From an uncultured Rickettsiales bacterium (GTDB lineage Bacteria > Pseudomonadota > Alphaproteobacteria > Rickettsiales > UBA1997), in contig CALXSC010000110.1 in assembly GCA_944391025.1 (NCBI GenBank), forward strand, positions 2,406-66,405: a DNA stretch of 64,000 nucleotides, read 5' to 3'. Positions 1,562 to 20,340 of this stretch are shown one piece after another (positions within the stretch are counted from its first letter, which is position 1; every line of letters begins with the position of its first letter). A program made the translations under genes and the position numbers. Under the pieces are notes generated by a model. The model ran no database searches, had not been told where the DNA came from, and saw only the letters and a program-made list of their open reading frames with translations.

Positions 1562-1578
1562 TTAATTATTAAATTATT

Positions 1579-2028: not shown

Positions 2029-2402
2029 TGGATATTATTCAATTAAAATATGAGCTTTCTAAAAAGAGTCCAGCAGAAATTTAGATTCTATTACAAATGC
2101 TAATGATTGAAAAGAAACTATCTTTTGTTTCACTATCAAATGCATATGTTGAGTATCTCGAACAAATAAAAGAAGATAACGAAAACAAATTAATAGAAGC
2201 TGAAACTTGTGTGATGGAAAGTTTCATTTATAATAGGAAAGATAAAGATGCCGCTTCCCATAACTCAGCTTTACGTGCTCTCTATCTATTAAATAAATCT
2301 AATAGATTTAATGTACAAGCAGAAAATAAAAAATATAATTATAATGAAGAGGAGGCAAGAAAATTATCTTGGTATGAACGTAATAAAAATAGTAATTCAT
2401 AG
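2028..2402 (+). CDS. hypothetical protein; start at 2028 requires reading TAG 2082-2084 as sense
   Basis: ATG 2028 overlaps upstream TAA; in frame with track ORF 2097-2402 through one TAG; ends in TAG 2400-2402, in frame with 2412-3269. Confidence 0.5.
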
Positions 2403-2411
2403 GATATTCAC

Positions 2412-3269: not shown

Positions 3270-3270
3270 T

Positions 3271-3459
3271 ATGGCATGGGTAGCAGTAGATAAGAATGGG
3301 AATGAAGTTATTTTTGAATTTGAGCTATACAGATGGAATGATTTCTTTTGGGTGGAAGATACTGGTGATTACATAGACCTTCCAAAAGGCTCAATTAAGA
3401 AACTTATAGGTAGAGACTTAGATTGGAATAATGAACCTGTAGAATTAAAGGTGGAATAA
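3271..3459 (+). CDS. hypothetical small protein (tandem paralog of 3463-3699)
   Basis: Track ORF; MxW(V/I)A..KNG... N-terminus and ...EP.EL tail resemble the next ORF. Confidence 0.65.
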   Translation: MAWVAVDKNGNEVIFEFELYRWNDFFWVEDTGDYIDLPKGSIKKLIGRDLDWNNEPVELKVE

Positions 3460-6960: not shown

Positions 6961-7392
6961 ATGACAAAATTAATACCTAGAAGTTATGCAAAAGGAGGCT
7001 AGCTTAATAGCCTATAGTTATTTACAGATTTCATAAGTAAATTAGAAGGATGGAAAACTAAATGTAAAAATCTTCATTGGGCTGCTCCTAAAAACAATAT
7101 TCATGTAAGGCTTGATGAGTTTTTAGAAGTTCTTTCAGATTATCAAGATACTTTAGCAGAAGGAATAATGGGATTACTAGGAGTACATCTTGGTCCTAAC
7201 GATATATCAGGAGATCCAGGTAATATAGATAATGCTACTGATTTTATACATCAAGTAAAAACAGAAACATTATCTTTTTATAATAGTATTCCATCAGATA
7301 TACAATATTGTGGATTAAAATCAGAGACTGAAACATTTATTTATAATATTAATAAATACACCTATCTCTTCTCAATTTGCTCTAATGAATAA
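6961..7392 (+). CDS. Dps/ferritin-like protein; needs two in-frame TAGs (7000, 7015) read as sense
   Basis: ATG 6961 is in frame with track ORF 7168-7392. Recoded N-half carries Dps-like K..HW..(N)..H..LDEF...D.LAE spacing (NLHWAAPKNNIHVRLDEFLEVLSDYQDTLAEGI). Confidence 0.65.
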
Positions 7393-7408
7393 TTATCAAA
7401 AGATTTAA

Positions 7409-7606
7409 ATGTATATATTAAGTATCAGTCCTAAAGCTTTTATTAAGCAGGGACAAGAAAATGAAATTATTATAGTATCCGATCCAAATAAAGCTACTAT
7501 AATAGAAACAATAGGTGACGCTATGAAAATTGCTTCTATAATCAATACTGATTTTGAAGCGGATGTTGTCAAAGTTCTATCAACCTCAGTTTCTAGTAAT
7601 CTATAA
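7409..7606 (+). CDS. hypothetical protein
   Basis: Track ORF 65 aa; preferred over the overlapping antisense ORF because of orientation. Confidence 0.5.
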   Translation: MYILSISPKAFIKQGQENEIIIVSDPNKATIIETIGDAMKIASIINTDFEADVVKVLSTSVSSNL

Positions 7607-7674
7607 ACTGGTGACTTTAGATCTTCGTTCAACAAGAACTGAGATAGGTTGGCTAACCTAAGTAATAGTCAAAA

Positions 7675-7730
7675 AGGACTAACTTATATAGTTATGAGGT
7701 TGAATTATAATTAAGTTAGTCCTATTTTTA
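7675..7730 (+). terminator. intrinsic terminator-like hairpin
   Basis: 12-bp stem AGGACTAACTTA/TAAGTTAGTCCT, 25-nt loop, then ATTTTTA. Confidence 0.6.
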
Positions 7731-7741
7731 ATTTATATGTT

Positions 7742-7999
7742 ATGGGAGAAATTATTTTAAGTTGTTTAATTGCAAATATTATTACACTAATATTTGTATC
7801 TGTAATATTTATTCTTATAGGATATATATTATATAAAAAATATATAGATAACATTAAAGATATAATATCTGATACAACTCAGAATGTAAATAATATTATT
7901 TCAGAAATTACTTCAACTACTAGTGAAGTTAAAAATTCTATGAATAAAATAAAAGAATTCTTAGACAAATGGGAAAGAATTATAAACTTTGGAATGTAG
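7742..7999 (+). CDS. hypothetical membrane protein (ends in TAG)
   Basis: Track ORF 85 aa; N-terminal TM helix. Confidence 0.6.
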   Translation: MGEIILSCLIANIITLIFVSVIFILIGYILYKKYIDNIKDIISDTTQNVNNIISEITSTTSEVKNSMNKIKEFLDKWERIINFGM

Positions 8000-8148
8000 G
8001 TGATCGAGTTAAAATAATTCGTAGTCATAGTGATGATTTAGGTAAAGAAGGAATTATTGTAGAAGTACGTCCTTCATTCTGTAAAATTGAGATTGAAGGC
8101 TATTCTAAGCCAAAAAATCATTGTTATGGTCAATTTGAGCGAATTTAA
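7969..8148 (+). CDS. small KOW/SH3-like protein (59 aa, below track cutoff)
   Basis: ATG 7969 to TAA 8146; MGKNYKLWNVGDRVKIIRSHSDDLGKEGIIVEVRPSFCKIEIEG... has a G-D-x-V-x-I...G..G.I pattern. Confidence 0.4.
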   Translation: MGKNYKLWNVGDRVKIIRSHSDDLGKEGIIVEVRPSFCKIEIEGYSKPKNHCYGQFERI

Positions 8149-8576
8149 AGCCCTTCGAGGTTAGTGGAAGCCAGCCCTTGCGATTTTATAAAACACTTAT
8201 CTGGTATACTAGGTTGGGTATCCTAGTTGTGGAAAGTTTTAGGATTTTTATCACCAATCAAAAAGAAAAAATCATTTTTAGATTTGTAGATTACTTATAT
8301 TATTAACTTAAACTTTTTGTATTATGTTAGAATGGATTAAAAAAGTTATCAAGTGGTACTTAGACCAACTTAAAGACACTAACGTTTTTGTCCCTACAGG
8401 CATGATACCTGTTTAGGAGTAATCAGATTATTAGATAGGACATTCTCAATACGGAGAATGCTCCTGATGTAGAGAGAAATAAAAGGAACACGTTCTACTA
8501 ACCTCCACGTGGTGTGTTCTGGATAAACAACTGATAAGTAGAGTAAAGAAATAAAATGTTTAATTAAAAAAAAACT

Positions 8577-8714
8577 ATGGCCAACAAAAAATTTATAATT
8601 GATGGAGAAAGAGTTATCTAGTAGTCTCCAGATGGTACTTTGACATATACAATAGATTGGTCTGGAGATATGTCAAAATTATTAGACTTTTTTAAAACAT
8701 TGCCTCTAATGTGA
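8577..8714 (+). CDS. small hypothetical ORF containing two consecutive in-frame TAG codons
   Basis: ATG 8577, TAG TAG at 8619-8624, TGA 8712-8714; otherwise open and hydrophilic. Confidence 0.35.
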
Positions 8715-8720
8715 TTAGTT

Positions 8721-9047
8721 ATGGAAATAGAATTAGATTATAATGAAGAACGTAAAATAGCTTCTTCTTTATCAGATGAAGAGTTAATGAATAAATATTG
8801 TGAGGGAGCTTTGTCTTTTGCAGAATATCATGAATTTTGTGATAGGATTGCAGAGAAAGATGCGGAAAAAGGCATAAGAGTGTCCTTTATGCCGTATGAA
8901 TTATATCTCGCAGAATATAAGGAATTGCTAAGTCAGCCTTATACATCCGTGACATGTGAAGGACCTATAATAAAACTCTCTGATGAACCAATTAAAACAG
9001 AACCTCCCAAAAAGAAAAATTTTTGGAATAAATTGTTTGATATATAA
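8721..9047 (+). CDS. hypothetical protein
   Basis: Track ORF 108 aa. Confidence 0.65.
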   Translation: MEIELDYNEERKIASSLSDEELMNKYCEGALSFAEYHEFCDRIAEKDAEKGIRVSFMPYELYLAEYKELLSQPYTSVTCEGPIIKLSDEPIKTEPPKKKNFWNKLFDI

Positions 9048-9048
9048 A

Positions 9049-9073
9049 AGAGAGTTACCTAAGATAACTCTCT
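9049..9073. terminator. hairpin between convergent genes
   Basis: 8-9 bp stem GAGAGTTA/TAACTCTC, loop CCTAAGA; T-rich on + strand, TTTT after it on - strand. Confidence 0.55.
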
Positions 9074-9089
9074 CTTGTAATACATCTAA

Positions 9090-9278
9090 TTACCTAGATT
9101 TCATCGTCTTTGAGACGAAGTGACAGTAGATTTCATACAGAATAGAGATGCAACCTACTGGAATACTTACTATTGGAAATATCATTCCTATTATAGTAAG
9201 TACAACACTGATTATAAGCTAGTGATGCTATTCAATCAGTGCATATAAATTCTTCATAAGTTTAAAGAATTTATTCAT
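9090..9278 (-). CDS. small membrane protein with two in-frame TAGs; the only minus-strand gene inside the plus-strand block
   Basis: Minus-strand GAAAGGAGGTGTTT-ATG; MNKFFKLMKNLYALIE-TAG-HH-TAG-LIISVVLTIIGMIFPIVSIPVGCISILYEIYCHFVSKTMKSR; frame checked, 62 codons. Confidence 0.5.
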
Positions 9279-10030
9279 AAACACCTCCTTTCCTCTTTAA
9301 AATTAGACATGCAATGTTATAGTACTGGTCATTGCTTCTACCATTTTACAAAGAAACTAATTTTAAATGAAAGGAGGTGTTTACTTGGAAATTTTTAAAA
9401 GAGAAACAGGAAAGAAGCTCTACACTCCTTTCCTGAAGAGTAAACTCTTTTTAGAATAAAGCTATGATAGAGACTGCTAATGACAGTACTTCTATCACGA
9501 CTATCTACCAAAGAGATAGTCTTTCTAATTGAGTTTCCTGCTTTTTAGGAAACTCAATCTAAAACTTGAATGAAAATTTTATTTTCATAGGTTTTGAGAT
9601 TAAAGTTTCAGGCTAAAAGTCCTCCAGCCATACTCGGACTAAATTTCCTGAAACTGGAGTATCCTAGCAATAGGATACTTTATTTTGAATAATTATTTAA
9701 ACAATATAGTATCTTTGCAGCCCAAGAGAGGAGGATAGTTGGTATTCCTCCAATTGGAAAAGCTAAAATATCCATTGAATGACACAAGACCAACTATCTT
9801 CAATTATTGCTTGAAGAATTGTCATTATAATGAAACAAATAACTTTCCAAACCGTCTTTTTGATTTTAGCCTTCCAAATAGCTAGATGGTGAAAAATTCG
9901 CTATTGGAGGCTTTTAAATATCATAGGCAAAATTTTTTAAAATTACTATAAGCACTATTGCTTATAGAGGCTGCAAAGATACAAATTCAGATTAAGGTAG
10001 CATTTATGTGCTACTTTAATCTTTGTTTTT
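9279..10030. other. hairpin-dense non-coding island
   Basis: No ORF over 25 codons on either strand even with TAG as sense; at least 12 perfect 7-15 bp stems found by eye (details in findings). Confidence 0.5.
9709..9982. repeat. element bounded by 14-bp perfect inverted repeat GTATCTTTGCAGCC / GGCTGCAAAGATAC
   Basis: Arms 9709-9722 and 9969-9982; same arms (one transition) bound 11602-11696. Confidence 0.5.
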
Positions 10031-10718: not shown

Positions 10719-11339
10719 ATGCTGGAAGAAAGATTTAAAGCATTTGGAATAAAATTGCCAGATGATTTTGATATATCAAATGTGCCAGCATATAAAATAT
10801 ATGCACCTGAATTTGCAGATGATGCTGGAAATATACGGATACATAATTATAAGGATGAGGTAAAAGGAATCCAAGATTTTTATGGATGGAAAGGATTTCA
10901 TACAGATAACCCTAACGAAATTTATATCAGAGAACATATTCAAAATAAAACTCCTAAAAATTTTAATCGTAATAATACAGAGTTACATGAAGCATTACAT
11001 GTTACCGACAAATACATTCCTGATGAAATTAAGAAAATATATAAAGAAATGTCTGGATTTTCAGATGATGTTGAATGGAATGAAAGAAGAAATACTAAAC
11101 ATCAAGTTGATTTAGTGATGAAAGAGAAGTATGGAAATAATTACTCTCGACATTTAAATCCAGATGTAAAAGAGGAATATAAATAGGAAATAGTAGATGA
11201 TTTCGTTAATGCAATGCACAATATGAATGGATATGGTGAAAGTTGGGTATATTCTAAAAAGAGTTGGGAAGATATGAGAAAAGTTCTTCCTTTACCAATA
11301 TTAACTTTACCATTATTACAGCAATAGAATTATAAATGA
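10719..11339 (+). CDS. HExxH-motif protein (putative Zn-metallopeptidase-like), 2 in-frame TAGs
   Basis: Track ORF 10719-11186 ends in TAG; frame stays open through TAG 11325 to TGA 11337; motif TELHEALHV. Confidence 0.6.
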
Positions 11340-11340
11340 T

Positions 11341-11583
11341 ATGATTGAAGTAAATGACAAACTAATGTCTCCTGATGAATATCGAGAATATACTCGTAAT
11401 ACAAATGGAATCGACATTTCTTGGTATTCTTATACTGAATATTTAGGAATACCTTCTGAACAAGTAGAAAAGGATAGACTTACTACAGATTATGATAAAC
11501 TTTGTTGGAAATACTATCAAGAAACATTAGATAGAATGAAGCAATGGGAAAGAGAGGAAGCTAAAGAAAAGTCTCTAGAATAA
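11341..11583 (+). CDS. hypothetical protein
   Basis: Track ORF 80 aa. Confidence 0.65.
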   Translation: MIEVNDKLMSPDEYREYTRNTNGIDISWYSYTEYLGIPSEQVEKDRLTTDYDKLCWKYYQETLDRMKQWEREEAKEKSLE

Positions 11584-11601
11584 ACTATTTAAATAACGTA
11601 C

Positions 11602-11696
11602 AGTATCTTTGTAGCCAACCTTAAACAATACCATTGAAGCTTTTCATTCTTTTTGTTTTACCATAACTATAAATTACCATAGGCTACAAAGATACT
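11602..11696. repeat. element bounded by 15-bp perfect inverted repeat AGTATCTTTGTAGCC / GGCTACAAAGATACT, followed by T-run
   Basis: Arms 11602-11616 and 11682-11696; 65-nt interior; could also act as a terminator. Confidence 0.5.
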
Positions 11697-11713
11697 TTTT
11701 TAATTACTTTGTT

Positions 11714-12400
11714 ATGAATTTACTTATAACCTCATTTAATATTAAAAATACTATTCCAGATTACGAAGGATATAGATCAAAAGATATTTATAAACTTATA
11801 GAATCTTATGATATTGTATGCTTACAGGAACTTACTCCGATTACAAATATTTTATTACGCCACTTTATGAGAAAAACTCATAAATTTTATGGATGTATGT
11901 TTGGTACTGGAGTATTTGTTAATAAGAAATTTAAAATTAAAAAGAAAAGAAAGATCAAATTATTTGATAATCTCGTAGAGGTTATTAAAGATGTTGATAA
12001 CTACAGGAAAGCTACATTTGTAGAAGTAGAAATAGATTCTAATACTTCTCTTAAAGTTTATTCTTGTCATTTTGGATTTAATACTGAATGGTATACAAAT
12101 TATAGTTCTTTACAAGATGCTATAAGAAATACTGATAAATCTAATTTATTGATATGTGGTGATTTTAATATTACTCCAGATAGTAATAATTATTCACTTC
12201 TTAAACATATTGATAATTTAAACTTAAATGATTTGAATGTACATAATCTTCCTACATTTCATGGTTTTAATGAAGATACAAAGGCATGGAAGATTATTGA
12301 TTATACTTTAACTAATGTAAATTATAAAAGAAGTATATTCTTTACGAATTATAGTGAAGTATCTGATCATCTTCGATTAGGTATAGATCTTTCATTATAA
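11714..12400 (+). CDS. endonuclease/exonuclease/phosphatase (EEP) family protein
   Basis: Track ORF; LITSFNI, CLQEL, ICGDFNITPD, IDYTL, SDH motifs in EEP order. Confidence 0.75.
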   Translation: MNLLITSFNIKNTIPDYEGYRSKDIYKLIESYDIVCLQELTPITNILLRHFMRKTHKFYGCMFGTGVFVNKKFKIKKKRKIKLFDNLVEVIKDVDNYRKATFVEVEIDSNTSLKVYSCHFGFNTEWYTNYSSLQDAIRNTDKSNLLICGDFNITPDSNNYSLLKHIDNLNLNDLNVHNLPTFHGFNEDTKAWKIIDYTLTNVNYKRSIFFTNYSEVSDHLRLGIDLSL

Positions 12401-12410
12401 TTTTAAGTAT

Positions 12411-12493
12411 TCCGCCTTCGCATAGAGGTTGATTGCACTAAATTTGTAATTTAGATCCTTAAGGACACGTCAGTTCGAATCTGACAGGCGGAT
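12411..12493 (+). tRNA. class II (long variable arm) tRNA with anticodon UGU; amino-acid identity unclear
   Basis: Perfect 7-bp acceptor TCCGCCT/AGGCGGA; T arm GTCAG-TTCGAAT-CTGAC; anticodon stem CTAAA/TTTAG with loop TTTGTAA; 14-nt variable arm ATCCTTAAGGACAC. Confidence 0.6.
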
Positions 12494-12722
12494 CAAAATA
12501 AAAATTAAAATATTATATAGACTGTGGGAAGGAATCCAGGTTCGAATCCTGTTTGGAAATAGACTACACAACATTGTTTGTCGATTTGGTGTATAGAAAG
12601 GTTAGCACATTCCATAGTTTATTTACTTAGGATGCTTGTTATTAACTTCCTTAACTTGTATATTATAGTGTTAGAAAAATAAAACAAATTGTAAAGAAGC
12701 TATTATAAAAAATTAAAATATT

Positions 12723-12926
12723 ATGGAAAGAAATTTAGTTATACAAGTACCAGGTGTTTTGAGTTTATTAGGAATTGCATTTATAATATTAAAATTATGT
12801 AATGTCATTACATGGTCGTGGATAGCAGTATTAGCTCCTTTTTGGATACCTGTACTGATTGTATTTTGTGGTACAATATGTGCATTACTTATACTGCTAG
12901 TTTACTATATAATAAAATTAAAATAA
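12723..12926 (+). CDS. hypothetical membrane protein
   Basis: Track ORF 67 aa, two TM helices. Confidence 0.6.
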   Translation: MERNLVIQVPGVLSLLGIAFIILKLCNVITWSWIAVLAPFWIPVLIVFCGTICALLILLVYYIIKLK

Positions 12927-12988: not shown

Positions 12989-13076
12989 GGAGAATTGCTA
13001 GAATGGTAATAGGCCTGACTTGAAATCAGAGGCAACGTAATCATCCGTTGAATAGGTTCGATTCCTATATTCTCCT
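12989..13076 (+). tRNA. tRNA-Ser (anticodon UGA)
   Basis: Acceptor GGAGAAT/ATTCTCC; loop CTTGAAA; 5-bp variable-arm stem CAACG/CGTTG; T arm ATAGG-TTCGATT-CCTAT. Confidence 0.8.
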
Positions 13077-13081
13077 CTAAT

Positions 13082-13141: not shown

Positions 13142-14176
13142 ATGAACAAATTTTTAGTTTACACTTCAAATCCTCCCTTCCAACCTAAGAACTTGGAAGA
13201 AGTAATTAACTGGGCTAAAGATGAATGCAAATTTATGATAGCCCCAGTAGAACTTAATGCTTATCTTCAAAACGTTAAAGTAGGCGATAACCTTATTACT
13301 AAGAAAGGTAATTCTCTTTACGTATTGAGAGTTATTGAAACTAGTCTTGAAGATATGAATGATGAAGATAGAGAATACATCGACAATCTTGCACGTAATT
13401 ATAACTTGAAGAAAGTTAATATTACTAGTGTAGCCAATCGTGTTAAATTTGAAACTTGGTGTCAAACAGTTAAACCACTTATTAATCAAACTTCTAACAA
13501 ATCAACTAAAATGAATTCAGTAAAAGACTTTACAGCTCGTATGAAAGAAATGTTTATGCCTACTGAGGCTAAAGATGTACGTATTGCCACTGATGGTAAT
13601 TTGTGTGTAGCAACTCAACATGGATATGTAACGATTGATAAAAATAATAATCTTACTTCTTATCCTGAAGAGTTAACTATCGATCTTCCTGTATTTATTA
13701 TTTGCAAGCCTAAGGAACAAATTGCAGTTGGTGATGTTATTGCTCTTGATAATAGTTATGCTAAAGTAACTAAGATTAATGGCGATAAAATTAGTGCTAT
13801 TAGTTATACAGGTGCAGGACGTTCTATTCGTACAATTAAGGACTTCTTGTTTAATCAAACTATGATTAGAGTAGTTGTATCTCTTGCTGGTAATATTGGT
13901 GGACAAATTAACCCTATGATGTTGATGATGTTGTCGAAAGACAAGGATTCTCTTCTTCCTCTGCTGATGATGAATCAGAATATGGGAGCCGTAGGGATGA
14001 ATCCTATGATGCTGATGATGCTTTCTAAAGAAGACATTTCTATGAAAGATCTTCTTTTGATGTCTTCTCTGAATGGAGATAATATGTTTGCTAATATGTT
14101 TACTACTCCTCAACAAACTGCTACAAAAGAACCTGCTGAGGAATATCCAGAAGAAGCTGCTGAAATTGAAGACTAA
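13142..14176 (+). CDS. hypothetical protein with Met-rich tandem repeat (NPMMLMMLSK x2) and acidic tail
   Basis: Track ORF 344 aa; flanked by terminators on both sides; GC-richer codons. Confidence 0.8.
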   Translation: MNKFLVYTSNPPFQPKNLEEVINWAKDECKFMIAPVELNAYLQNVKVGDNLITKKGNSLYVLRVIETSLEDMNDEDREYIDNLARNYNLKKVNITSVANRVKFETWCQTVKPLINQTSNKSTKMNSVKDFTARMKEMFMPTEAKDVRIATDGNLCVATQHGYVTIDKNNNLTSYPEELTIDLPVFIICKPKEQIAVGDVIALDNSYAKVTKINGDKISAISYTGAGRSIRTIKDFLFNQTMIRVVVSLAGNIGGQINPMMLMMLSKDKDSLLPLLMMNQNMGAVGMNPMMLMMLSKEDISMKDLLLMSSLNGDNMFANMFTTPQQTATKEPAEEYPEEAAEIED

Positions 14177-14188
14177 AAAGTAAATATA

Positions 14189-14222
14189 GTAACACTCCTA
14201 TATAAGGGAGTGTTACTTTTTT
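14189..14222 (+). terminator. strong intrinsic terminator
   Basis: 10-bp perfect stem GTAACACTCC/GGAGTGTTAC, then TTTTTT. Confidence 0.75.
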
Positions 14223-14232
14223 ATACAAAAGT

Positions 14233-14955
14233 ATGAATGAATTTAGATATTTAAGTTATCACACTAGATATTCTAGTGAAGGTGATACACCAGTTCGTTT
14301 AGGTAATTATGCTTGTTTTAGTAGTATTTTTCATGATAGGAATGGTATTTTAAACAACTACTATGAAATAGTACTATACACTGATATTAATAACGCTAAA
14401 GAAAATTATAATAATAATTATTGTCCTTTTTCTGAAAAACTTATAAATAGACATATTCATTTACTTACATATTTATTTCCTATTAAATGGAGACTTTCTA
14501 CAGACGATGATACTATAATAGTACATGTAGAATTAAAAGGAATAAAAATGTATCATTTATATGCTTTAGCGTGGATTAGGTATCTATATGAATTTCCATA
14601 TAATATGATTCTGATGGATGCTTATAACTTAAAGAGTAATAAACTTTTTACCTTTACTTCTATCGAAACTCTCTTTAATTTAATTTCAGCAAATTATGAA
14701 AATCAATTTGACGGATTACATGCTCTTTATCCACCAGAGGTACACATACCTATGAAAATTAAGCAATTACGAAAAAAACTTGAAACAGTTAATAGGTTAC
14801 ATGATATTTTTAATAGCATGAATACTAGAGTATGGCAACAACCTGATGTACCTTGGTATTCTCCTTATGATGTAGAATTTTGGAGTGATGAATTTTATCC
14901 TATAAGAGAAACTTGTTATATAGATTATTATTTAAATTTCGTTAAAAGAAAATGA
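14233..14955 (+). CDS. hypothetical protein, first gene of the amidoligase operon
   Basis: Track ORF 240 aa; stop overlaps next start (ATGA). Confidence 0.75.
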   Translation: MNEFRYLSYHTRYSSEGDTPVRLGNYACFSSIFHDRNGILNNYYEIVLYTDINNAKENYNNNYCPFSEKLINRHIHLLTYLFPIKWRLSTDDDTIIVHVELKGIKMYHLYALAWIRYLYEFPYNMILMDAYNLKSNKLFTFTSIETLFNLISANYENQFDGLHALYPPEVHIPMKIKQLRKKLETVNRLHDIFNSMNTRVWQQPDVPWYSPYDVEFWSDEFYPIRETCYIDYYLNFVKRK

Positions 14956-15584
14956 AAATATTTGTAGTAGGAAATAGCAAAAATTATGCTAATTTCATTG
15001 AAAATGCTGAATTAGTCGATAATTTAGAAGAAGCGCAATGTGTATTATTTACTGGAGGGGAAGACGTAGATCCTTCATTATATGGATGCGAAAAACATGA
15101 ATATACCTACTCTAATTTAAGTAGAGATCTAAAGGAGAAGAAAATTTTTGATAAAGTTAATCCTGAGACTCAAATTTGTGTAGGTGTATGTCGTGGATCA
15201 CAATTAATGTGCATTTTAAACGGAGGTTTGCTTGTACAAGACTGCGATAATCATGCTGTACCTCATACTCATGCAATAACTGATGGAGAAACTATGTATG
15301 AAATTACATCTACTCATCATCAGATGCAATATCCATATAATTTATCTACAGAACATTATAAGGTTTTGTATACAGCTTGTCCTAGGTTAAGTCATTACTA
15401 TTCAGGTGATAAAATTAACTCTGAACTTATTAAAAGAAATGGAGAACCTGAAGTAGTATTGTATACTAAACCTAATCTACCTATTTGTTTAGCGATTCAA
15501 GGACATCCAGAAATGATTCCTGAATCTCCTGTTTCTAAAATGTTAAGTGATCTAATAAATAATTTAGTAAAAAATGATAAGTAA
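14952..15584 (+). CDS. class I glutamine amidotransferase / peptidase C26 (gamma-glutamyl hydrolase-like)
   Basis: GGEDVDPSLYG, nucleophile elbow GVCRGSQ, QGHPE. Confidence 0.75.
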   Translation: MKIFVVGNSKNYANFIENAELVDNLEEAQCVLFTGGEDVDPSLYGCEKHEYTYSNLSRDLKEKKIFDKVNPETQICVGVCRGSQLMCILNGGLLVQDCDNHAVPHTHAITDGETMYEITSTHHQMQYPYNLSTEHYKVLYTACPRLSHYYSGDKINSELIKRNGEPEVVLYTKPNLPICLAIQGHPEMIPESPVSKMLSDLINNLVKNDK

Positions 15585-16362
15585 TGTTTTTGTAGGAGCT
15601 GATCCTGAATTGTTTATAATTAATACGAAAAATAAAAAAGTAGTATCAGCTGTTGGTATAATTCCTGGAGAAAAAGGAAATCCTTATCATAGTGACGACA
15701 TGCCTGAAGGATTTGGCTTAGAAACTGATAATATATTAGCTGAATTTAATATTCCTCCTGCATGTTCAATGGAAGGATTTATTAATAACATAGAGTATAT
15801 GAAAAGTTATATTGACAATTTTGTTAAAAATATAAATCCTGATTATGGAATTCTATGTGCAGCTTCTAAAAAGGTTGATGACAGTCAGCTTCAAAGTGAA
15901 CAAGCTAGGCTATTTGGTTGTTCTCGCGATTTTAACGTATATACGGGTAAAGCAAACCCAAAACCTAAAGGAGAATCTACTAATCTCCGCTCAGCAGGAT
16001 TCCATTTGCACATAAGTTATGAAAATCCTAACATTAACACTTCTTTAAGACTAATTAAGTATCTTGATATGTATTTGGGTATTCCTTCTGTTATTAAAGA
16101 TACTGATAAAAGAAGAAGATCATTATATGGAAAAGCAGGATGTTTTAGATTAAAACCTTATGGGCTTGAATATCGAGTATTAAGTTCTGCAATGATGAAA
16201 GATACTCAAACTTTATGTTTTGTATGGAAACAATTAGTAACAGCTGTAGAAGCTTGTGTTAGAGGTTCTAAACTAGCAGACCCTGAGAATGTAATACAAG
16301 CAATTAACAACAGTGATTTGAAATTAGCTAGAAAGATTGTTGAAGCCTACGATATTATGTAA
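15574..16362 (+). CDS. phage-type COOH-NH2 (carboxylate-amine) ligase, type 2-like
   Basis: VGADPELFI, GLETDN..EFNI, FGCSRDFN, SAGFHLHISY, RRRSLYGKAG.FR.KPYGLEYRVLS, matching my recollection of the family. Confidence 0.65.
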   Translation: MISNVFVGADPELFIINTKNKKVVSAVGIIPGEKGNPYHSDDMPEGFGLETDNILAEFNIPPACSMEGFINNIEYMKSYIDNFVKNINPDYGILCAASKKVDDSQLQSEQARLFGCSRDFNVYTGKANPKPKGESTNLRSAGFHLHISYENPNINTSLRLIKYLDMYLGIPSVIKDTDKRRRSLYGKAGCFRLKPYGLEYRVLSSAMMKDTQTLCFVWKQLVTAVEACVRGSKLADPENVIQAINNSDLKLARKIVEAYDIM

Positions 16363-16375
16363 AAAAAAAAGAATT

Positions 16376-16568
16376 ATGGAGAAATGGAAAGACATTGCTG
16401 GGTATGAGGGCAGATATTAGGCTTCTAACCTTAGATAGCATTAAAAGCCTAATTTCTTTAAGATCTGTTGAAAGAGAGTTAAATATACCCCATAGTAACA
16501 TCATTGCTTCTATTAAAAGGAATGGAAGAGCTGGAGGTTATATATGGAAATTATTAAATAACAATTAA
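16376..16568 (+). pseudogene. decayed NUMOD4/NUMOD1-type homing endonuclease relic
   Basis: MEKWKDIAGYEGRY-TAG-ASNLR-TAG-H stops at 16442. The +1 frame (ATG 16404 to TAA 16566) carries a NUMOD1-like HTH SLRSVERELNIPHSNIIASIKRNGRAGGYIWK. No nuclease domain remains. Confidence 0.5.
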
Positions 16569-16580
16569 AATTTTAAGATT

Positions 16581-17846
16581 TTGTGCGGCATTGCTGGTAT
16601 TATTAGTAAAACTCCCAGAGCGTTTGATTATGGAACGTTCTGTACTCTTGGTATTGCAAACGATACTAGAGGTGGAGATTCGTGTGGTATCTTTATTGAT
16701 GGAGTTTGTGATTATGGAGTAGATAAGAAAAAATTATTTACTGATTACTTTATGGACTCCGAAATCTTAAATAATGTAAAGATTTCACAAATAGCTTTAC
16801 TTCATTGTAGAAAAGCTTCTGTAGGATCTATTGGATTAAGTACTGCGCAACCTGTTGTTCTTTACGGTGAGGATGGTCCAGAATTTATAGTAATGCATAA
16901 CGGGACTATTCGGAACTATGAAGAATTAGCTAAAAAGTATATTCCAGATATTAACATAACTGGAATGACTGACTCACAGGTAATGGCTAGAATCTTTTAT
17001 TATAAAGGTTATGAAGTATTGCGTGAATATATTGGGGCAGCAGTATTTGTGATAGTAGATTATAGGAGTGGAGAGCCTGTAACTAAATTATTTAAAGGAC
17101 GTTCTAAATTACATTCTTATTCTGTAGAAGAATCTGACGAAAGGCCTCTTTATTATTGTATTACTAACGGAGAACTGGTATTTTCTTCAATATGGACATA
17201 TTTAGTAGCCTTAAGAAAAGATAGCAGAGTATATTCTCTAAGAGCTAATGAACTTTTAGAATTTAATGGTAAGAATTTAGTAACCGTTGAAGAAATTGAT
17301 CGGTCCAGAGTTGCTCAAACTTTACCTAGTAAGTATTATGATAATAATTCATATCTTTCTAATTATCTATCTATTGACTTAAATAAAAATATTTATAGTT
17401 ATAATAATGCAAGAGCGCATTTTGTATATAATATAGATAATATAGGTAGGTTAAAGATTGCTGATGGAACTGATGTTTATTTCTTTGATGGAGTAGCTCT
17501 TAAGAATAAAGCTTGTTACGATTTCTTAACAAATCTTAGGATTAAAAGTAAACTTCCTTTAAAAATATTTTCTAAGAGATTTGAAAATGTTATAAGGTAT
17601 TTAAGTGTTGATCAAGTTTATCCTATAGGAGATTTATGGTATAGAGCTGTTTCTCCTTTAAAGCATGAATTATTTAGTGGAATATATAATCCTATAATTT
17701 CTTCATGTAGAACAGAATATAAAGGGGGAATAAAATTAGGTACGACATATCTATTTCCTAGAGTTCCTATGTCCGAGTATATTGATGAAAAGAAAGAGTT
17801 TAATTTTAAAAAGATTAGAGAAGAATGCAAGTCTTTGATGAAATAA
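16581..17846 (+). CDS. class II (Ntn) glutamine amidotransferase with uncharacterised C-terminal half
   Basis: TTG start then Cys2 (MCGIAGI); RGGDSCGIF, HCRKAS, MHNGTIRNYEEL, TDSQV. Confidence 0.8.
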   Translation: MCGIAGIISKTPRAFDYGTFCTLGIANDTRGGDSCGIFIDGVCDYGVDKKKLFTDYFMDSEILNNVKISQIALLHCRKASVGSIGLSTAQPVVLYGEDGPEFIVMHNGTIRNYEELAKKYIPDINITGMTDSQVMARIFYYKGYEVLREYIGAAVFVIVDYRSGEPVTKLFKGRSKLHSYSVEESDERPLYYCITNGELVFSSIWTYLVALRKDSRVYSLRANELLEFNGKNLVTVEEIDRSRVAQTLPSKYYDNNSYLSNYLSIDLNKNIYSYNNARAHFVYNIDNIGRLKIADGTDVYFFDGVALKNKACYDFLTNLRIKSKLPLKIFSKRFENVIRYLSVDQVYPIGDLWYRAVSPLKHELFSGIYNPIISSCRTEYKGGIKLGTTYLFPRVPMSEYIDEKKEFNFKKIREECKSLMK

Positions 17847-18703
17847 ACAAAAAGTTTATATCTACTAGCAAGGCAAAAAGAACTGTAGTAGACATATGTA
17901 ATGATACTATTGTATATGGATATGTCCCAAAAGACAGTGAAATGGTTACTTTTAGGTATATTGATAGTTACTTTGAGGGAAGTTATGAACTATTAAAAGA
18001 TAAATTAGTATATAGTAATCTACGTGGAGTATATATGCTTAAAAATCACATGTCTCTTGAAGATATAATAAACAATAGTTATCTCATGGGGCGTGGTGAT
18101 TTTCCTTATAGTTTTTCTAGAAAATATGAAGCTGTAGAGAATTTTGATATATTTTATAATAAGCAGAAAATACTAAATCCCGAAGAATTTCCTATTTCTA
18201 ATTATTTTAAATATACTTTCGGATTAGAATTTGAAACTTCTATGGGTTATATTCCTGAACGAATTTGTTATCGTGATGGATTAATTCCCTTAAGAGATGG
18301 ATCAATTCATGGATTAGAGTATTCTACTGTAGTATTAAAGGGTAATGATGGGTTATCTTTATTAAAACAGCAGTTAAATTCTTTAAAAGAATATACTGCG
18401 TTTGATAAAGAATGCTCATTACATATCCATATGGGTAATTTCCCACTAGAACCTGGAGCTATATTTAATGCATATAAAATATTTTATAGTATACAAGAGA
18501 ATATTGCCCTTCTAGTTCCTCCATTAACTTTTAGAGGAGACAAATATAAAGAAAATGGAAAGAACTATTGCAAGCTTTTAGAAAGATATGAGGATTTTGA
18601 TAAAATGTATCTTCATTTGGTAGGGGTTCCGTTTTTTGGAGACTTAATGCAGCCTCACCCTAAAGATTTATCAAGATCCTCTAAGTGGCATATAGATACT
18701 CGT
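17825..18703 (+). CDS. Amidoligase_2 / glutamine-synthetase-like carboxylate-amine ligase, exon 1
   Basis: FGLEFETS, LRDGSIHGLEYSTVVLKG, CSLHIHMG. The frame ends at the intron's TAA just after ..WHIDTR. Confidence 0.75.
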
Positions 18704-19555
18704 TAAGATAATGGCGAGGCTAATTGGTGACAATTAGAAAAATAAATTGGGTGAATTTAGGGAAATCTAAATAAAATTAGTATATTTGTAGTATGGAAAA
18801 TAATGAATTAAAACGTAAAAGTTATTAGAATTATCCTTTTTATAAAGGACAGGTAATAGATGCTATTACCATTTTAGAAGACGATTTTGTTTATGTCGAT
18901 GGAAGATACCTGGTTAAATTTGAATGTAGATGTGGAAAGGTTGATTATAAAAGATTAAATATATTACAGAAAATGCAATTTAAATGTTGTAAATATTGCG
19001 AAAGAAAAAATAATTATCCAGAAAAGAGAAAATCTAGAGGATATTTTGATGAAAACAATATGCACAAAACTTGGTTATCTGTAATAAAACAAAATTTAGA
19101 TAGAGGTAGTAAACACATCGAATGTACTATTACTATGCAAGATCTATATGATACCTTAAAAAAGCAAAATTTTAAATGTGCTTATACTGGAAAAGATCTT
19201 AATGTAGTAGGAGTACTTAGAGATCAATCTAATGGATCTGTAGATAGAATTGATTCTTCTAAAGGATATATTCCAGATAATATTCAATGGGTTTATAAAC
19301 CTATTAATATTATGAAAAATAGCTTTACTGATGAAATTTTTAAAAATCTATGCTATAAGGTTGCTGATTTTACAAGACAATCCTAAGCCAAGCTAAAGGT
19401 TAATAACTTTAGAAGGTTCAGAGACTAGACACTGAAACTCTATTTGGAGAATATAATGTGTCCACGAGTGCCCAACATCTTATATAGATGATGATATAGT
19501 CCGATACCTAAAGGAAACTTTAGGATGCAAGATAAAGAGCTTGCTATAACATTTG
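18704..19555 (+). mobile_element. group I intron (IC3-like) carrying an HNH endonuclease ORF
   Basis: 5' exon ends in U (CGT|) and intron ends in G (ACATTTG|). Core TAAGCCAAGC, GAAGGTTCAGAGACTAGACAC (19412-19432), ATATAGTCCGA (19494-19504). Splicing restores the family motif ..TR|YYAVN..IEFRF. Confidence 0.75.
18793..19386 (+). CDS. intron-encoded HNH homing endonuclease (one in-frame TAG at 18826)
   Basis: ATG 18793 lies 2 nt after a TATATTTGTA box and is in frame with track ORF 18973-19386; SVDRIDSSKGYIPDNIQWVYKPINIMK HNH-type motif; CxxC pairs. Confidence 0.75.
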
Positions 19556-19897
19556 TATTACGCTGTGAACTTCATTAATATACTCTGTTATGCTGTTAAT
19601 AAAACCATTGAATTTAGATTTCTTAGGCCTACTTATAATTTTCATAAAATATTAGTTTGGCTAGCTATATTTAATGCGGTTCTAGAATATGCAGAACGAA
19701 GATTACCTATTCCTTCTACAAACAGGTTGAAAAATATTATCATTAAAATTTATGATGATCCTAAGATTCGTGATTTTGTTTTAGAAGGTATTTATAAATT
19801 AAGAGCACTAGCTAATTTACAGAGTAATAATGGTGATTCTATTGGAAATGATGTAAGTTTTGAGGATAAATTATTTAATGATGAACGATATAATTAA
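19556..19897 (+). CDS. Amidoligase_2 ligase, exon 2
   Basis: YYAVNFINIL....TIEFRFLRPTYN continues the family's C-terminal motif; same frame as track ORF 19553-19897. Confidence 0.75.
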   Translation, partial: YYAVNFINILCYAVNKTIEFRFLRPTYNFHKILVWLAIFNAVLEYAERRLPIPSTNRLKNIIIKIYDDPKIRDFVLEGIYKLRALANLQSNNGDSIGNDVSFEDKLFNDERYN

Positions 19898-20228
19898 TTA
19901 TAAAGAATTAACTCTTTATCCAGATGCTTTTATGTGTTTTGTAGGAGATAAAGAAGTTAAATTAACTCGGAATGAATATAATTTATTACATTTTTTTCTA
20001 ACTAATCAGAATCATGTGTTTAGTAGAAGAGAAATAATGGATTCCGTATGGAATAAGAAAATTTCTTTTAATACTATCGATGCTACTGTGTCTAAAATTC
20101 AAAAGAAAATTTCTCCATATCGTTATATAACGACTCAGGGAAGTTTTGGATATGGAATTTTAGATAAGGATGTTATTAGAGAAAGATGTTCTGAGTTAAG
20201 ACTTAAGAAAAAAGAAAATAACGAATAA
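19878..20228 (+). CDS. stand-alone OmpR/PhoB-type winged-helix DNA-binding protein
   Basis: LTRNEYNLLHFFLTNQNHVFSRREIMDSVW......IDATVSKIQKKI.....ITTQGSFGYGI; ATG 19878 overlaps the ligase end. Confidence 0.65.
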   Translation: MMNDIINYKELTLYPDAFMCFVGDKEVKLTRNEYNLLHFFLTNQNHVFSRREIMDSVWNKKISFNTIDATVSKIQKKISPYRYITTQGSFGYGILDKDVIRERCSELRLKKKENNE

Positions 20229-20233
20229 ACTAT

Positions 20234-20319
20234 GAGGGTGTGGTGAAATTTGGTTGAAACACGCCAGTCTCTGGTACGGATTGATGATCACGTTGTGAGT
20301 TCGAATCTCACCACCCTTA
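20234..20319 (+). ncRNA. tRNA-like RNA lacking a canonical anticodon arm
   Basis: 7-bp acceptor GAGGGTG/CACCCTT; U8; T arm GTGAG-TTCGAAT-CTCAC; D-like arm. The 31 nt between them fold only as CCAG-TCT-CTGG. T8 run follows. Confidence 0.45.
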
Positions 20320-20340
20320 CTTTTTTTTAATTAATTTAAA

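What the first reader, a model, noticed from the sequence alone, without database searches (positions are those of the whole stretch)
14233..20228. Coupled operon of two carboxylate-amine ligases and two amidotransferase-type enzymes with unknown product
The genes are translationally coupled on the + strand:
- 14233-14955: no motif recognised.
- 14952-15584: class I amidotransferase / peptidase C26 fold (GGEDVDPSLYG, GVCRGSQ, QGHPE).
- 15574-16362: phage COOH-NH2 ligase type 2-like (GADPELF, GFHLHISY, GLEYRVLS).
- 16581-17846: Ntn amidotransferase with Cys2 after a TTG start, plus ~200 aa of unassigned C-terminal sequence.
- 17825-18703 + 19556-19897: Amidoligase_2 / GS-like ligase.
- 19878-20228: an overlapping stand-alone OmpR-type winged helix.

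Two different ATP-dependent amide-bond formers, an ammonia donor and a gamma-glutamyl-hydrolase-like trimmer are the parts needed to build and edit an amide- or isopeptide-linked adduct. The target could be a metabolite, a protein, a cell-wall precursor, a nucleotide or DNA base, or a tRNA.

From memory, comparative-genomic work on amidoligases noted similar associations in phiEco32-type phages. I know of no determined substrate or product.

The operon sits inside the DNA-metabolism arm. Homing elements target it (an intron with HNH in the ligase, and an endonuclease relic at 16376-16568), which usually marks conserved, important genes.
Basis: partly seen in the sequence, partly recalled or inferred. 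Interest (0 to 1): 0.85.

Follow-up and report, generated by a model that had tools for sequence, protein, structure and literature searches.

The report
Phage amidoligase gene cassette, product unknown
This is a reduced version of a gene cassette for amide-bond-forming enzymes that was predicted in 2009 and is common in crAss-like and other phages; every described feature is real, but the molecule it makes or modifies is still unknown.

Summary
Window 14233-20228 is one terminator-free + strand unit. It encodes an uncharacterised 240-aa protein, a Peptidase_C26 thiol hydrolase, a phiEco32-type COOH-NH2 ligase, an N-terminal-nucleophile (Ntn, class II) glutamine amidotransferase, an Amidoligase_2 enzyme and a stand-alone winged helix.

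A group I intron carrying an HNH gene splits the amidoligase. A decayed HNH gene lies between two cassette genes. Catalytic residues align with solved homologues.

The set is not new in kind. It is a reduced form of the phiEco32/LUZ24-type cassette predicted by Iyer et al. (2009), and similar sets are annotated in crAss-like phages.

- Of 80 IMG/VR loci, 77 hold ligase, amidotransferase and amidoligase, always in that order.
- 74 of those 77 also have C26; 54 have a detectable 240-aa homologue.
- This lineage lacks the ATP-grasp and gamma-glutamyl cyclotransferase genes of the fuller versions.
- The ligase is nearly absent from bacterial genomes.

I found no experimental characterisation.

Most likely it is a soluble ATP- and glutamine-dependent pathway. 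It would build and trim gamma-glutamyl or carboxamide links on a cytoplasmic acceptor during replication. The acceptor is undetermined.

Interest is moderate: an old open question and a new conserved partner family, but no new handle on the product.

The parts
14188..14217 (+). Hairpin (12-bp stem) followed by a T-run. It is the likely terminator of the upstream 344-aa gene and marks the 5' boundary of the cassette transcript.
   Evidence: It is the only + strand terminator-like site between 13107 and 21100.
14233..14955 (+). 240-aa protein of an uncharacterised, cassette-specific family. Cys28, Arg116 and Glu120 are invariant. The conserved motif is HxYxLxWxRYLYExPxN.
   Evidence: No Pfam, PHROG, NCBIfam, PADLOC or PDB match. 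The family has 505 cluster representatives, nearly all 200-340 aa (mostly 235-275), in a 1.84-billion-protein library. AF2 pLDDT is 76; no PDB fold match. BFVD matches only the two unnamed proteins in the same slot of the crAss-like phages cr108_1 and ctelJ1, E=3e-8 to 1e-6. A homologue was detected in 54 of 77 cassettes.
14952..15584 (+). Peptidase_C26 / class I GATase-fold thiol hydrolase. The Cys-His-Glu triad is GVCRGSQ ... QGHPE.
   Evidence: The triad aligns with Lin1909 (3fij) and PuuD (6vtv). Best NCBIfam hit is gamma-glutamyl-CDP-amidate hydrolase, far below its cut-off. Present in 74 of 77 cassettes, directly upstream of the ligase.
15574..16362 (+). phiEco32-type COOH-NH2 ligase, type 2 (GCS2/glutamine-synthetase-like carboxylate-amine ligase).
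   Evidence: Pfam PF14395 3.1e-14 and PHROG 3815 1e-66. The motifs GADPELF, DNILAEFNIPP, GFHxH and YGxEYR are conserved out to phi14:2. No solved relative.
16376..16568 (+). Decayed free-standing HNH homing endonuclease gene. The N-terminal NUMOD4-like end and the C-terminal DNA-binding end are kept; the catalytic middle is lost.
   Evidence: Absent from relatives, which have about 8 nt here.
16581..17846 (+). N-terminal-nucleophile (Ntn, class II) glutamine amidotransferase domain (residues 1-~245, TTG start then Cys2), plus a ~175-aa beta-rich C-terminal domain with no assigned fold.
   Evidence: AF2 pLDDT is 90.6; Foldseek to GlmS, PurF and AsnB glutaminase domains gives E about 1e-11. Cys1, Arg (HCRKAS), Asn-Gly (HNGT) and Asp (TDSQ) align with PurF. 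In the C-terminal domain only three Gly are invariant across cassette types, and there is no PDB match.
17825..18703 (+). Amidoligase_2 exon 1 (residues 1-293). It ends at the invariant Arg of the RY motif.
18704..19555 (+). Group I intron, 852 nt.
   Evidence: The ORF-less homologue in L023 matches RF00028 at 73.9 bits. The window's intron ends are 90-93% identical to it. P1 covaries, a U.G pair sits at the 5' splice site and a G precedes the 3' splice site. The window copy itself is not called by Rfam.
18973..19386 (+). HNH / endonuclease VII-type homing endonuclease ORF inside the intron.
   Evidence: PHROG 3322 1.4e-18 and PHROG 1035 3.7e-18. It is 71% identical to the ORF in L011's intron at the same site.
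19556..19897 (+). Amidoligase_2 exon 2. It carries the invariant Tyr, Asn and T-x-E-x-R motif.
19878..20228 (+). Stand-alone OmpR/PhoB-type winged-helix DNA-binding domain with no receiver domain. It is a lineage-specific neighbour, not a core member.
   Evidence: Trans_reg_C 1.3e-15. Detected in 8 of 80 loci, all of the window's closest type. It lies directly after the amidoligase in L023 and L047 and 3-4 kb downstream in the others.

Best explanation
The cassette is a soluble, phage-specific enzyme set. During the replication phase it would use ATP and glutamine to make, and partly undo, amide bonds on a cytoplasmic acceptor. It is a reduced form of the phiEco32/LUZ24/crAss-type amidoligase cassette.

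Proposed steps:
1. The Ntn protein hydrolyses glutamine. It works as a complex with the glutamine-synthetase-like Amidoligase_2, docking through its non-catalytic C-terminal domain. The amidoligase activates a carboxylate with ATP, and the released ammonia or an amine attacks it.
2. The GCS2-like COOH-NH2 ligase joins a glutamyl-type carboxylate to an amine.
3. The C26 thiol hydrolase cleaves a gamma-glutamyl amide. That is the job done by gamma-glutamyl cyclotransferase (GGCT) in fuller cassettes. It resembles PuuA/PuuD and the butirosin BtrJ/BtrG 'gamma-glutamyl handle' logic.
4. The 240-aa protein is a required partner of unknown activity.

Shown: fold identities, intact catalytic residues, fixed gene order and coupling, restriction to phages, solubility.

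Inferred: the pairing of subunits, the gamma-glutamyl chemistry, and everything about the acceptor. I lean towards a small molecule, such as a nucleotide-linked, polyamine-like or peptide/thiol-like metabolite, rather than a macromolecule.
For: Domain identities and catalytic residues.

Conserved architecture:
- The order ligase, then amidotransferase, then amidoligase holds in 77 of 77 complete IMG/VR loci. C26 lies directly upstream of the ligase in 74.
- The amidotransferase and amidoligase genes overlap by 22 nt here. They are also adjacent, in the reverse order, in LUZ24 (gp18, gp19).
- Each ligase sits next to an enzyme that cleaves a gamma-glutamyl amide: GGCT with ATP-grasp, C26 with COOH-NH2 ligase, Ntn amidotransferase with amidoligase.

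Subunit pairing:
- Two independent evolved lines of a LUZ24-like phage each acquired missense changes in the amidoligase and amidotransferase genes (PMC11450229).
- The amidotransferase C-terminal domain has only Gly invariant across cassette types. That suggests docking rather than catalysis.

The minimal set: 36 of 77 cassettes have neither ATP-grasp nor GGCT, but nearly all keep C26.

Localisation and origin:
- No transmembrane segment or signal-like N-terminus in any product (maximum KD19 of 1.33).
- Only 11 hits in one genome for each of 185,579 species. Ten are flagged as MAG or metagenome-bin contigs and the eleventh is a short contig from a similar gut assembly. This points to a phage function rather than a borrowed host gene.
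- The cassette is absent from some crAss-like phages, since the cr108_1 annotators had to name these genes from non-crAss001 phages. It is therefore accessory.

From my own knowledge: Pfam describes Amidoligase_2 as neighbouring either a GATase-like thiol peptidase or an AIG2 cyclotransferase. PuuA/PuuD, BtrJ/BtrG and EgtA/EgtC are precedents for adding and then removing a gamma-glutamyl group.
Against: - No substrate, product or activity has been measured for any member of this cassette in any phage that I could find.
- C26 could be a second glutaminase feeding the COOH-NH2 ligase rather than a trimmer. The sequence cannot tell these apart.
- The Ntn domain could hydrolyse a gamma-glutamyl-amine, as EgtC does, rather than glutamine.
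- Physical association of the subunits was not tested; no multimer prediction was available.
- The 240-aa protein's role is unknown. Its invariant Cys, Arg and Glu hint at catalysis that the scheme does not account for.
- The position between primase and UDG or RNR would fit a nucleic-acid target equally well.
- Many of the 80 loci are close relatives, so the counts overstate independent support.
Confidence: 0.4

Rival explanations
1. Two glutamine-dependent amidation modules. C26 would be the glutaminase subunit of the COOH-NH2 ligase, and the Ntn protein the glutaminase subunit of the amidoligase. Together they would convert two carboxylates of one substrate into carboxamides, as GatD/MurT or cobyrinic acid diamide synthase do. 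No gamma-glutamyl handle would be involved.
For: The genes come as two overlapping pairs, C26 with ligase and amidotransferase with amidoligase. C26 also passes the class I GATase model (PF00117, 23.6 bits against a cut-off of 22.8) and has the full triad.
Against: The protein scores far better on Peptidase_C26 than on GATase (54.5 against 23.6 bits). Its nearest solved and curated relatives are gamma-glutamyl-amide hydrolases: PuuD and gamma-glutamyl-CDP-amidate hydrolase. The fuller cassettes add GGCT, which acts on gamma-glutamyl amines and makes no ammonia.
Confidence: 0.2
2. DNA or nucleotide hypermodification. The cassette would attach an amino-acid or amide group to a base or nucleotide to protect phage DNA from host nucleases. 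The 240-aa Cys/Arg/Glu protein would be the base-activating enzyme.
For: - The cassette lies in the replication and nucleotide-metabolism block. It sits between primase and UDG in crAss-like phages and next to primase/helicase in LUZ24.
- Its distribution is sporadic and accessory, as for other modification systems.
- Lee et al. 2021 report amidoligase and amidotransferase genes of unknown role in contigs with thymidine-hypermodification genes (PMC8989533).
- An invariant Cys, Arg and Glu recalls enzymes that attack pyrimidine C6 (the comparison is my own knowledge).
Against: - No DNA-binding, glycosylase-like, kinase or base-flipping domain is found in the cassette.
- No Pfam match points to thymidine hypermodification among the window's ORFs, while ThyX and dUTPase are present.
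- The 240-aa model has no fold match to thymidylate synthase or methyltransferases.
- As far as I know, no modified base has been reported for phiEco32 or LUZ24 (my own knowledge).
Confidence: 0.15
3. Cell-wall precursor modification causing superinfection exclusion. This is the reading attributed to Iyer et al. 2009. The enzymes would amidate or extend the peptide stem of cytoplasmic peptidoglycan precursors so that later phages adsorb or lyse poorly.
For: Later papers cite Iyer et al. in this sense (PMC10580990; PMC11318856). The chemistry, ATP-dependent ligation at Glu carboxylates with glutamine as nitrogen donor, matches MurT/GatD (PMC3267633, listed).
Against: - No Mur-ligase domain, membrane anchor or lipid II-related gene is present.
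- The cassette is carried by apparently lytic phages in an early replication module.
- Amidoligase plus GATase genes are also reported in viruses assigned to Poseidoniales archaea (PMC11706807). Those hosts lack peptidoglycan (my own knowledge).
- There is no match to known defence or exclusion proteins.
Confidence: 0.1
4. Peptide tagging or glutamylation of a protein, phage or host (a ribosomal protein, RNAP or a virion protein). It would be added in the manner of RimK or TTL enzymes and removed by C26 or GGCT.
For: The ATP-grasp of fuller cassettes matches the RimK and TTL families. GGACT-type cyclotransferases act on epsilon-(gamma-glutamyl)lysine (my own knowledge). PafA and Dop show that glutamine-synthetase-like ligases can tag proteins (my own knowledge). 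The conserved upstream 344-aa protein ends in an acidic tail.
Against: The window's lineage lacks the ATP-grasp altogether. A terminator separates the 344-aa gene from the cassette, and that gene is confined to one lineage. No tag-like small ORF is conserved in the cassette.
Confidence: 0.1
5. A general auxiliary metabolic module that boosts host nitrogen and amino-acid metabolism (glutamine/glutamate, gamma-glutamyl cycle).
For: Proposed for 'Phage-ZRK32', which carries amidoligase, GATase, ATP-grasp ('glutathione synthase') and GGCT genes (PMC10945688).
Against: The ligase family is nearly absent from bacterial genomes, so it does not duplicate a host pathway. The fixed multi-gene order with a phage-only partner family points to a dedicated product. 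The cited evidence is indirect: growth effects of a phage preparation.
Confidence: 0.05

Closest known systems
phiEco32 / LUZ24-type phage amidoligase cassette (Iyer, Abhiman, Burroughs & Aravind 2009, Mol Biosyst 5:1636; a prediction only)
   Same: It has the COOH-NH2 ligase type 2, Amidoligase_2 and a class II glutamine amidotransferase adjacent to the amidoligase. It sits in the early/replication module next to primase genes. It is phage-restricted and its product is unknown.
   Different: The window lacks the RimK-like ATP-grasp and the AIG2/GGCT genes. It has a C26 thiol hydrolase and a 240-aa protein of a family that is unnamed in the deposited annotations I read. Gene order differs from LUZ24.
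Cassette of crAss-like Steigviridae (Cellulophaga phage phi14:2 g037-g041; uncultured phage cr108_1 QOR59006-QOR59012)
   Same: The order is the same: C26 (in cr108_1), then COOH-NH2 ligase, then amidotransferase, then amidoligase. cr108_1 has two paralogues of the 240-aa family in the same slot.
   Different: Those phages add an ATP-grasp (and GGCT in phi14:2), and a UDG gene follows. Their amidotransferase (492-638 aa) and amidoligase (486-515 aa) are longer. Identity is only 31-40%.
E. coli PuuA/PuuD (gamma-glutamylputrescine synthetase and gamma-Glu-GABA hydrolase) and butirosin BtrJ/BtrG
   Same: A glutamine-synthetase-like or ATP-grasp ligase adds a gamma-glutamyl group to an amine, and a C26 hydrolase or GGCT later removes it. 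The C26 triad aligns with PuuD.
   Different: Similarity is at family level only (E=0.75 to PuuD). The phage set has two further ligase-type enzymes, a glutaminase and the unknown protein. No polyamine or acyl-carrier gene is present.
Heteromeric glutamine-dependent amidotransferases (MurT/GatD; asparagine synthetase B)
   Same: A glutaminase is coupled to an ATP-dependent carboxylate-activating enzyme. The Ntn domain has all the glutamine-binding residues of PurF, GlmS and AsnB.
   Different: The activating partner is a glutamine-synthetase-like amidoligase encoded separately, not a Mur ligase or a PP-loop domain. The Ntn protein's own C-terminal domain matches no known synthase domain.
Phage group I introns carrying HNH genes (for example in T-even and Twort-like phages)
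   Same: The intron sits in a conserved catalytic motif (between the invariant Arg293 and Tyr294 of the amidoligase). The HNH ORF lies in a loop. ORF-less derivatives exist, and the intron is far more conserved (90-93%) than its host gene (about 51-56% protein identity).
   Different: I found no report of an intron in an amidoligase gene among the papers I read.

Membership tests
phiEco32/LUZ24-type phage amidoligase cassette (Iyer et al. 2009) | COOH-NH2 ligase type 2 (PF14395) | tested here: met
   53.3 bits against a gathering score of 25; PHROG 3815 1e-66.
phiEco32/LUZ24-type phage amidoligase cassette (Iyer et al. 2009) | Amidoligase_2 (PF12224) with intact E-x-E, H-x-H and E-x-R motifs | tested here: met
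   The spliced product scores 27.9 bits against a gathering score of 22. All 31 family-invariant residues are present.
phiEco32/LUZ24-type phage amidoligase cassette (Iyer et al. 2009) | Class II glutamine amidotransferase gene adjacent to the amidoligase | tested here: met
phiEco32/LUZ24-type phage amidoligase cassette (Iyer et al. 2009) | RimK-like ATP-grasp ligase | tested here: not met
   No ATP-grasp hit in the cassette or its flanks. It is absent from 36 of 77 related cassettes, including all those of the window's type. The 344-aa gene in that slot is not an ATP-grasp.
phiEco32/LUZ24-type phage amidoligase cassette (Iyer et al. 2009) | AIG2/gamma-glutamyl cyclotransferase | tested here: not met
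   No GGACT hit in the window. C26 is present instead.
Peptidase C26 / class I GATase fold | Cys-His-Glu triad in register, and the Pfam gathering score | tested here: met
   54.5 bits against a gathering score of 20.5. CRG and HPE align with 3fij and 6vtv.
Peptidase C26 / class I GATase fold | Gamma-glutamyl-amide hydrolase activity, as opposed to glutaminase activity | not testable with these tools
   The sequence does not discriminate. An enzyme assay is needed.
Class II (Ntn) glutamine amidotransferases | N-terminal Cys after Met removal, plus the Arg, Asn-Gly and Asp of the glutamine site | tested here: met
   TTG-TGC start. Alignment to PurF. Foldseek E about 1e-11 to GlmS, PurF and AsnB.
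Class II (Ntn) glutamine amidotransferases | Fused acceptor (synthase) domain of a known type: PRTase, SIS, PP-loop or FMN | tested here: not met
   Residues ~245-421 match no Pfam family or PDB sequence, and they have no invariant polar residue.
Group I intron | Match to the RF00028 covariance model | tested here: inconclusive
   The window copy is not called. The ORF-less homologue at the same site in L023 scores 73.9 bits, and the window is 90-93% identical over both ends.
Group I intron | P1 pairing with a U.G at the 5' splice site, a G before the 3' splice site, and exons that join in frame | tested here: met
   The junction equals the uninterrupted homologues.
Group I intron | Self-splicing | not testable with these tools
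   Needs RT-PCR or in vitro splicing.
Thymidine hypermodification clusters (5-HMUDK, aGPT-Pplase; Lee et al. 2018/2021) | 5-hmdU kinase, aGPT-Pplase and dUMP hydroxymethylase or TET genes | tested here: inconclusive
   No Pfam match of that kind was found among the ORFs scanned, and ThyX and dUTPase are present. Only 64 kb of a roughly 160-kb genome is in view, and I did not confirm that Pfam holds models for these families.
MurT/GatD peptidoglycan amidation | Mur-ligase domain partner | tested here: not met
   No Mur_ligase hit.
OmpR/PhoB response regulators | Receiver domain plus Trans_reg_C | tested here: not met
   Only the Trans_reg_C effector domain is present, in a 116-122-aa protein.

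The most novel reading that the evidence does not exclude
The cassette, with the uncharacterised 240-aa Cys/Arg/Glu protein as a new kind of base- or nucleotide-activating enzyme, installs an amino-acid or carboxamide-type hypermodification on phage DNA or its precursors. That would give many crAss-like gut phages, and also LUZ24- and phiEco32-type phages, a DNA chemistry not yet described.
Probability: 0.12. Interest if true: 0.9.

Novelty: new variant of a known kind. Interest (0 to 1): 0.5.

Why it matters
The cassette has lacked a product since it was predicted in 2009. It nevertheless occurs in at least 252 IMG/VR contigs. These include crAss-like phages, which the papers I read describe as highly abundant in the human gut. 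It also occurs in Pseudomonas phages of the LUZ24 type that are being developed for therapy.

This analysis narrows the problem in three ways:
- It defines a minimal five-gene form.
- It adds a conserved partner family that is unnamed in the deposited annotations I read.
- It shows the genes are arranged as ligase/hydrolase pairs.

If the product is a DNA modification, a counter-defence metabolite or a host-takeover modification, it would be new phage biochemistry. It would bear on sequencing, host range and phage therapy. If it is merely a metabolic helper, the finding is ordinary.

Tried and rejected
- Rfam on the window did not call the amidoligase intron at gathering or at E<=10. This was resolved through the ORF-less homologue.
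- The Iyer 2009 paper is not held in the library, so its content is taken from citing papers and from my memory.
- A word-indexed homologue search with only the C-terminal half of the amidotransferase returned one hit and was a wasted search.
- Sequence and profile searches of the PDB with the COOH-NH2 ligase, the amidoligase, the 240-aa family and the amidotransferase C-terminal domain found nothing meaningful.
- Foldseek of the 240-aa model against the PDB gave no hit below E=0.1.
- Foldseek of the full amidotransferase model returned only glutaminase-domain matches. The C-terminal domain could not be searched alone.
- PADLOC gave no defence-system match.
- The idea that the upstream 344-aa gene is a degenerate ATP-grasp was rejected (hhalign probability 0.4%).
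- The idea that LUZ24 gp14 and gp15 belong to the 240-aa family was not supported (hhalign probability <1%). Both do share an N-terminal 'CF' dipeptide at the aligned spot.
- The bacterial genome scan gave only 11 hits, ten of them flagged as MAG or metagenome-bin contigs, so there is no informative cellular context.
- The sigma-70 promoter scan was at background level (52 found against 58 expected) and was not used.

Full report
**What is there**

The window is AT-rich (about 28% G+C) with nearly all genes on the + strand.

The only + strand terminator-like hairpin nearby is at 14188-14217, just upstream of the first gene. None lies inside the block. The block therefore reads as one transcription unit starting near 14220.

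**Gene identities**

| Coordinates | Identity | Evidence |
|---|---|---|
| 14952-15584 | Peptidase_C26 / class I GATase-fold protein | E=1.8e-14, PHROG 7218 2e-33. Its Cys (GVCRGSQ) and His-x-Glu (QGHPE) align with Lin1909 and PuuD |
| 15574-16362 | phiEco32-type COOH-NH2 ligase | PF14395 3e-14, PHROG 3815 1e-66 |
| 16581-17846 | N-terminal-nucleophile (Ntn, class II) glutamine amidotransferase | Starts TTG-TGC. Cys1, Arg, Asn-Gly and Asp align with PurF |
| 17825-18703 + 19556-19897 | Amidoligase_2 | See 'The split amidoligase' |
| 19878-20228 | OmpR/PhoB winged helix, no receiver domain | |

The AlphaFold model of the amidotransferase (pLDDT 90.6) matches the GlmS, PurF and AsnB glutaminase domains at E about 1e-11. 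Its last ~175 residues form a beta-rich domain that matches nothing. Across cassette types only three glycines are invariant in it. That looks like a docking domain rather than a catalytic one.

None of the products has a membrane segment or a signal-like N-terminus.

**The split amidoligase**

Exon 1 alone falls just below the Pfam threshold (20.6 against 22 bits). The spliced 406-aa product passes at 27.9 bits and carries every invariant residue of a 13-member family alignment.

In 340-kb relatives the gene is uninterrupted. It runs from the residue encoded at 18701-18703 straight into the one encoded at 19556-19558.

The 852-nt insert is a group I intron:
- Rfam missed it in the window.
- A relative, L023, carries an ORF-less copy at the same site that scores 73.9 bits, E=4e-19.
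- The window's intron ends are 90-93% identical to that copy and to a third copy in L011.
- The P1 helix covaries: CUCGU/GCGAG against CACGU/GCGUG.

The intron lies between the invariant Arg293 and Tyr294. Its HNH ORF is 71% identical to L011's.

**The endonuclease relic**

At 16376-16568 the N- and C-terminal ends of an HNH homing endonuclease survive without the catalytic core. Relatives have only about 8 nt there.

**The 'no motif' protein**

14233-14955 matches no library or solved structure. It is nevertheless not an orphan.
- A full HMMER search finds 505 cluster representatives, nearly all 200-340 aa (mostly 235-275).
- In a 58-member alignment Cys28, Arg116 and Glu120 are invariant.
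- Its model (pLDDT 76) matches, in the viral structure library, only the two unnamed proteins in the same slot of cr108_1 and ctelJ1.

It is a conserved cassette component, sometimes duplicated.

**How widespread the cassette is**

A profile of the COOH-NH2 ligase finds 252 relatives in IMG/VR. Counts for the best 80 loci:

| Feature | Loci |
|---|---|
| Ligase, amidotransferase and amidoligase all present | 77 of 80 |
| Those three genes in that order | 77 of 77 |
| C26 also present | 74 of 77 |
| Detectable 240-aa homologue together with C26 | 54 of 77 |
| RimK/TTL-like ATP-grasp | 41 of 77 |
| GGCT (gamma-glutamyl cyclotransferase) | 13 of 77 |
| Neither ATP-grasp nor GGCT (the window's type) | 36 of 77 |

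Many loci are close relatives, so these are not independent counts.

The window's type occurs on contigs of 42-353 kb. Fuller versions occur on contigs of about 100 kb, typical of crAss-like phages. These include Cellulophaga phage phi14:2 and cr108_1, where the cassette lies between primase and UDG. LUZ24-like phages carry a rearranged version next to primase/helicase.

The window itself encodes a crAss001_48-related domain, ThyX, dUTPase, RNR, DnaB, primase, DNA ligase, a sigma factor and an intron-split PolA. With its many introns, this fits the Zeta crAss-like group (PMC12386605).

In one genome for each of 185,579 bacterial and archaeal species the ligase has only 11 hits. Ten are flagged as MAG or metagenome-bin contigs, and the eleventh is a short contig from a similar gut assembly. 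It is a phage gene.

Homing elements interrupt the amidoligase, the ligase and C26 in four loci each.

**What is known**

The association was described by Iyer et al. (2009). I could not read that paper. Later papers give only speculative roles:
- Cell-wall modification or superinfection exclusion.
- Secondary metabolites or gene regulation.
- Nitrogen metabolism.
- Unexplained companions of thymidine-hypermodification genes.

The nearest thing to an experiment is a directed-evolution study. Two independent lines of a LUZ24-like phage each acquired missense mutations in the amidoligase and amidotransferase genes. I found no biochemical characterisation.

**How it most likely works**

Every ligase gene sits beside a gene for an enzyme that cleaves the gamma-amide of a glutamyl group:
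- GGCT beside ATP-grasp.
- C26 beside the COOH-NH2 ligase.
- The Ntn amidotransferase beside the amidoligase.

I read the amidotransferase and amidoligase as a two-subunit glutamine-dependent amidoligase. The supports are overlapping genes, adjacency in unrelated lineages, co-mutation and a non-catalytic C-terminal domain.

I read the ligase plus C26 as a pair that adds and removes a gamma-glutamyl group. This follows PuuA/PuuD and BtrJ/BtrG (my own knowledge). C26 would stand in for GGCT in the reduced cassette.

The acceptor is unknown. Solubility, phage restriction and accessory distribution favour a dedicated cytoplasmic product. The position in the replication module keeps a nucleotide or DNA target open. 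These steps are inferences, and I give the scheme about 0.4.

**Verdict**

The system is a compositional variant of a cassette that was predicted long ago and is widely annotated, so it is not a new kind of system. Its value lies in an unsolved product, its abundance in gut phages, and a newly delineated partner family.

Noticed in passing
window 53275-53456: A second group I intron (RF00028, 49.9 bits against a gathering score of 50, E=6e-12). It lies between the two DNA polymerase A ORFs 51939-53231 and 53457-54284 and has no ORF.
   Followed up: partly
window 13142-14176: A conserved 344-aa protein, 53-65% identical in relatives. It has two Met-rich repeats (NPMMLMMLS) and an acidic C-terminus. 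A hairpin terminator separates it from the cassette. It never co-occurs with the ATP-grasp gene that fills this slot in other cassettes (0 of 77), and it is not an ATP-grasp. Function unknown.
   Followed up: partly
window 20234-20320: A tRNA-Gln(CTG) immediately after the winged-helix gene. It is 87 nt long with the anticodon at position 38, which is unusual geometry for tRNA-Gln. tRNA-Ser and tRNA-Thr genes lie upstream at 12989-13077 and 12411-12494.
   Followed up: no
L023 (164.7-kb relative) 7247-10025 and 11278-12851: In this relative three cassette genes are interrupted at once. C26 is split into 87- and 120-aa ORFs. The COOH-NH2 ligase is split by a LAGLIDADG gene. The amidoligase is split by the ORF-less intron.
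   Followed up: partly
L002 13436-14590 and 16993-17559 (minus strand): In the 340-kb relatives, two ORFs lie on the opposite strand just downstream of the amidoligase. By my reading of their sequences they resemble an M42-type aminopeptidase and a NadD-like nucleotidyltransferase. Neither was run through Pfam.
   Followed up: no
L011 6503-6992 and 8710-8913: A phage-encoded tmRNA (97 bits), a dense tRNA array and another group I intron (61 bits) lie just upstream of the cassette. In this relative the C26 gene looks frameshifted and the 240-aa and 344-aa genes are missing.
   Followed up: no
window, ORFs listed: ThyX, dUTPase, a dCTP-deaminase-like domain, YqeY-like, CapR, HAD_SAK_2 and crAss001_48-related domains occur among the smaller ORFs. 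The scan mode did not report which ORF carries which domain.
   Followed up: no
window 50220-51721: A VWA-domain protein gene overlaps a full four-region sigma-70-type factor gene in the replication block.
   Followed up: no
L117 (LUZ24) 1444-3381: gp14 and gp15, two ~320-aa unnamed proteins directly upstream of the COOH-NH2 ligase, show no significant profile match to the 240-aa family. Both align their N-terminal 'CF' dipeptide to its invariant Cys28-Phe29. This may be chance.
   Followed up: partly
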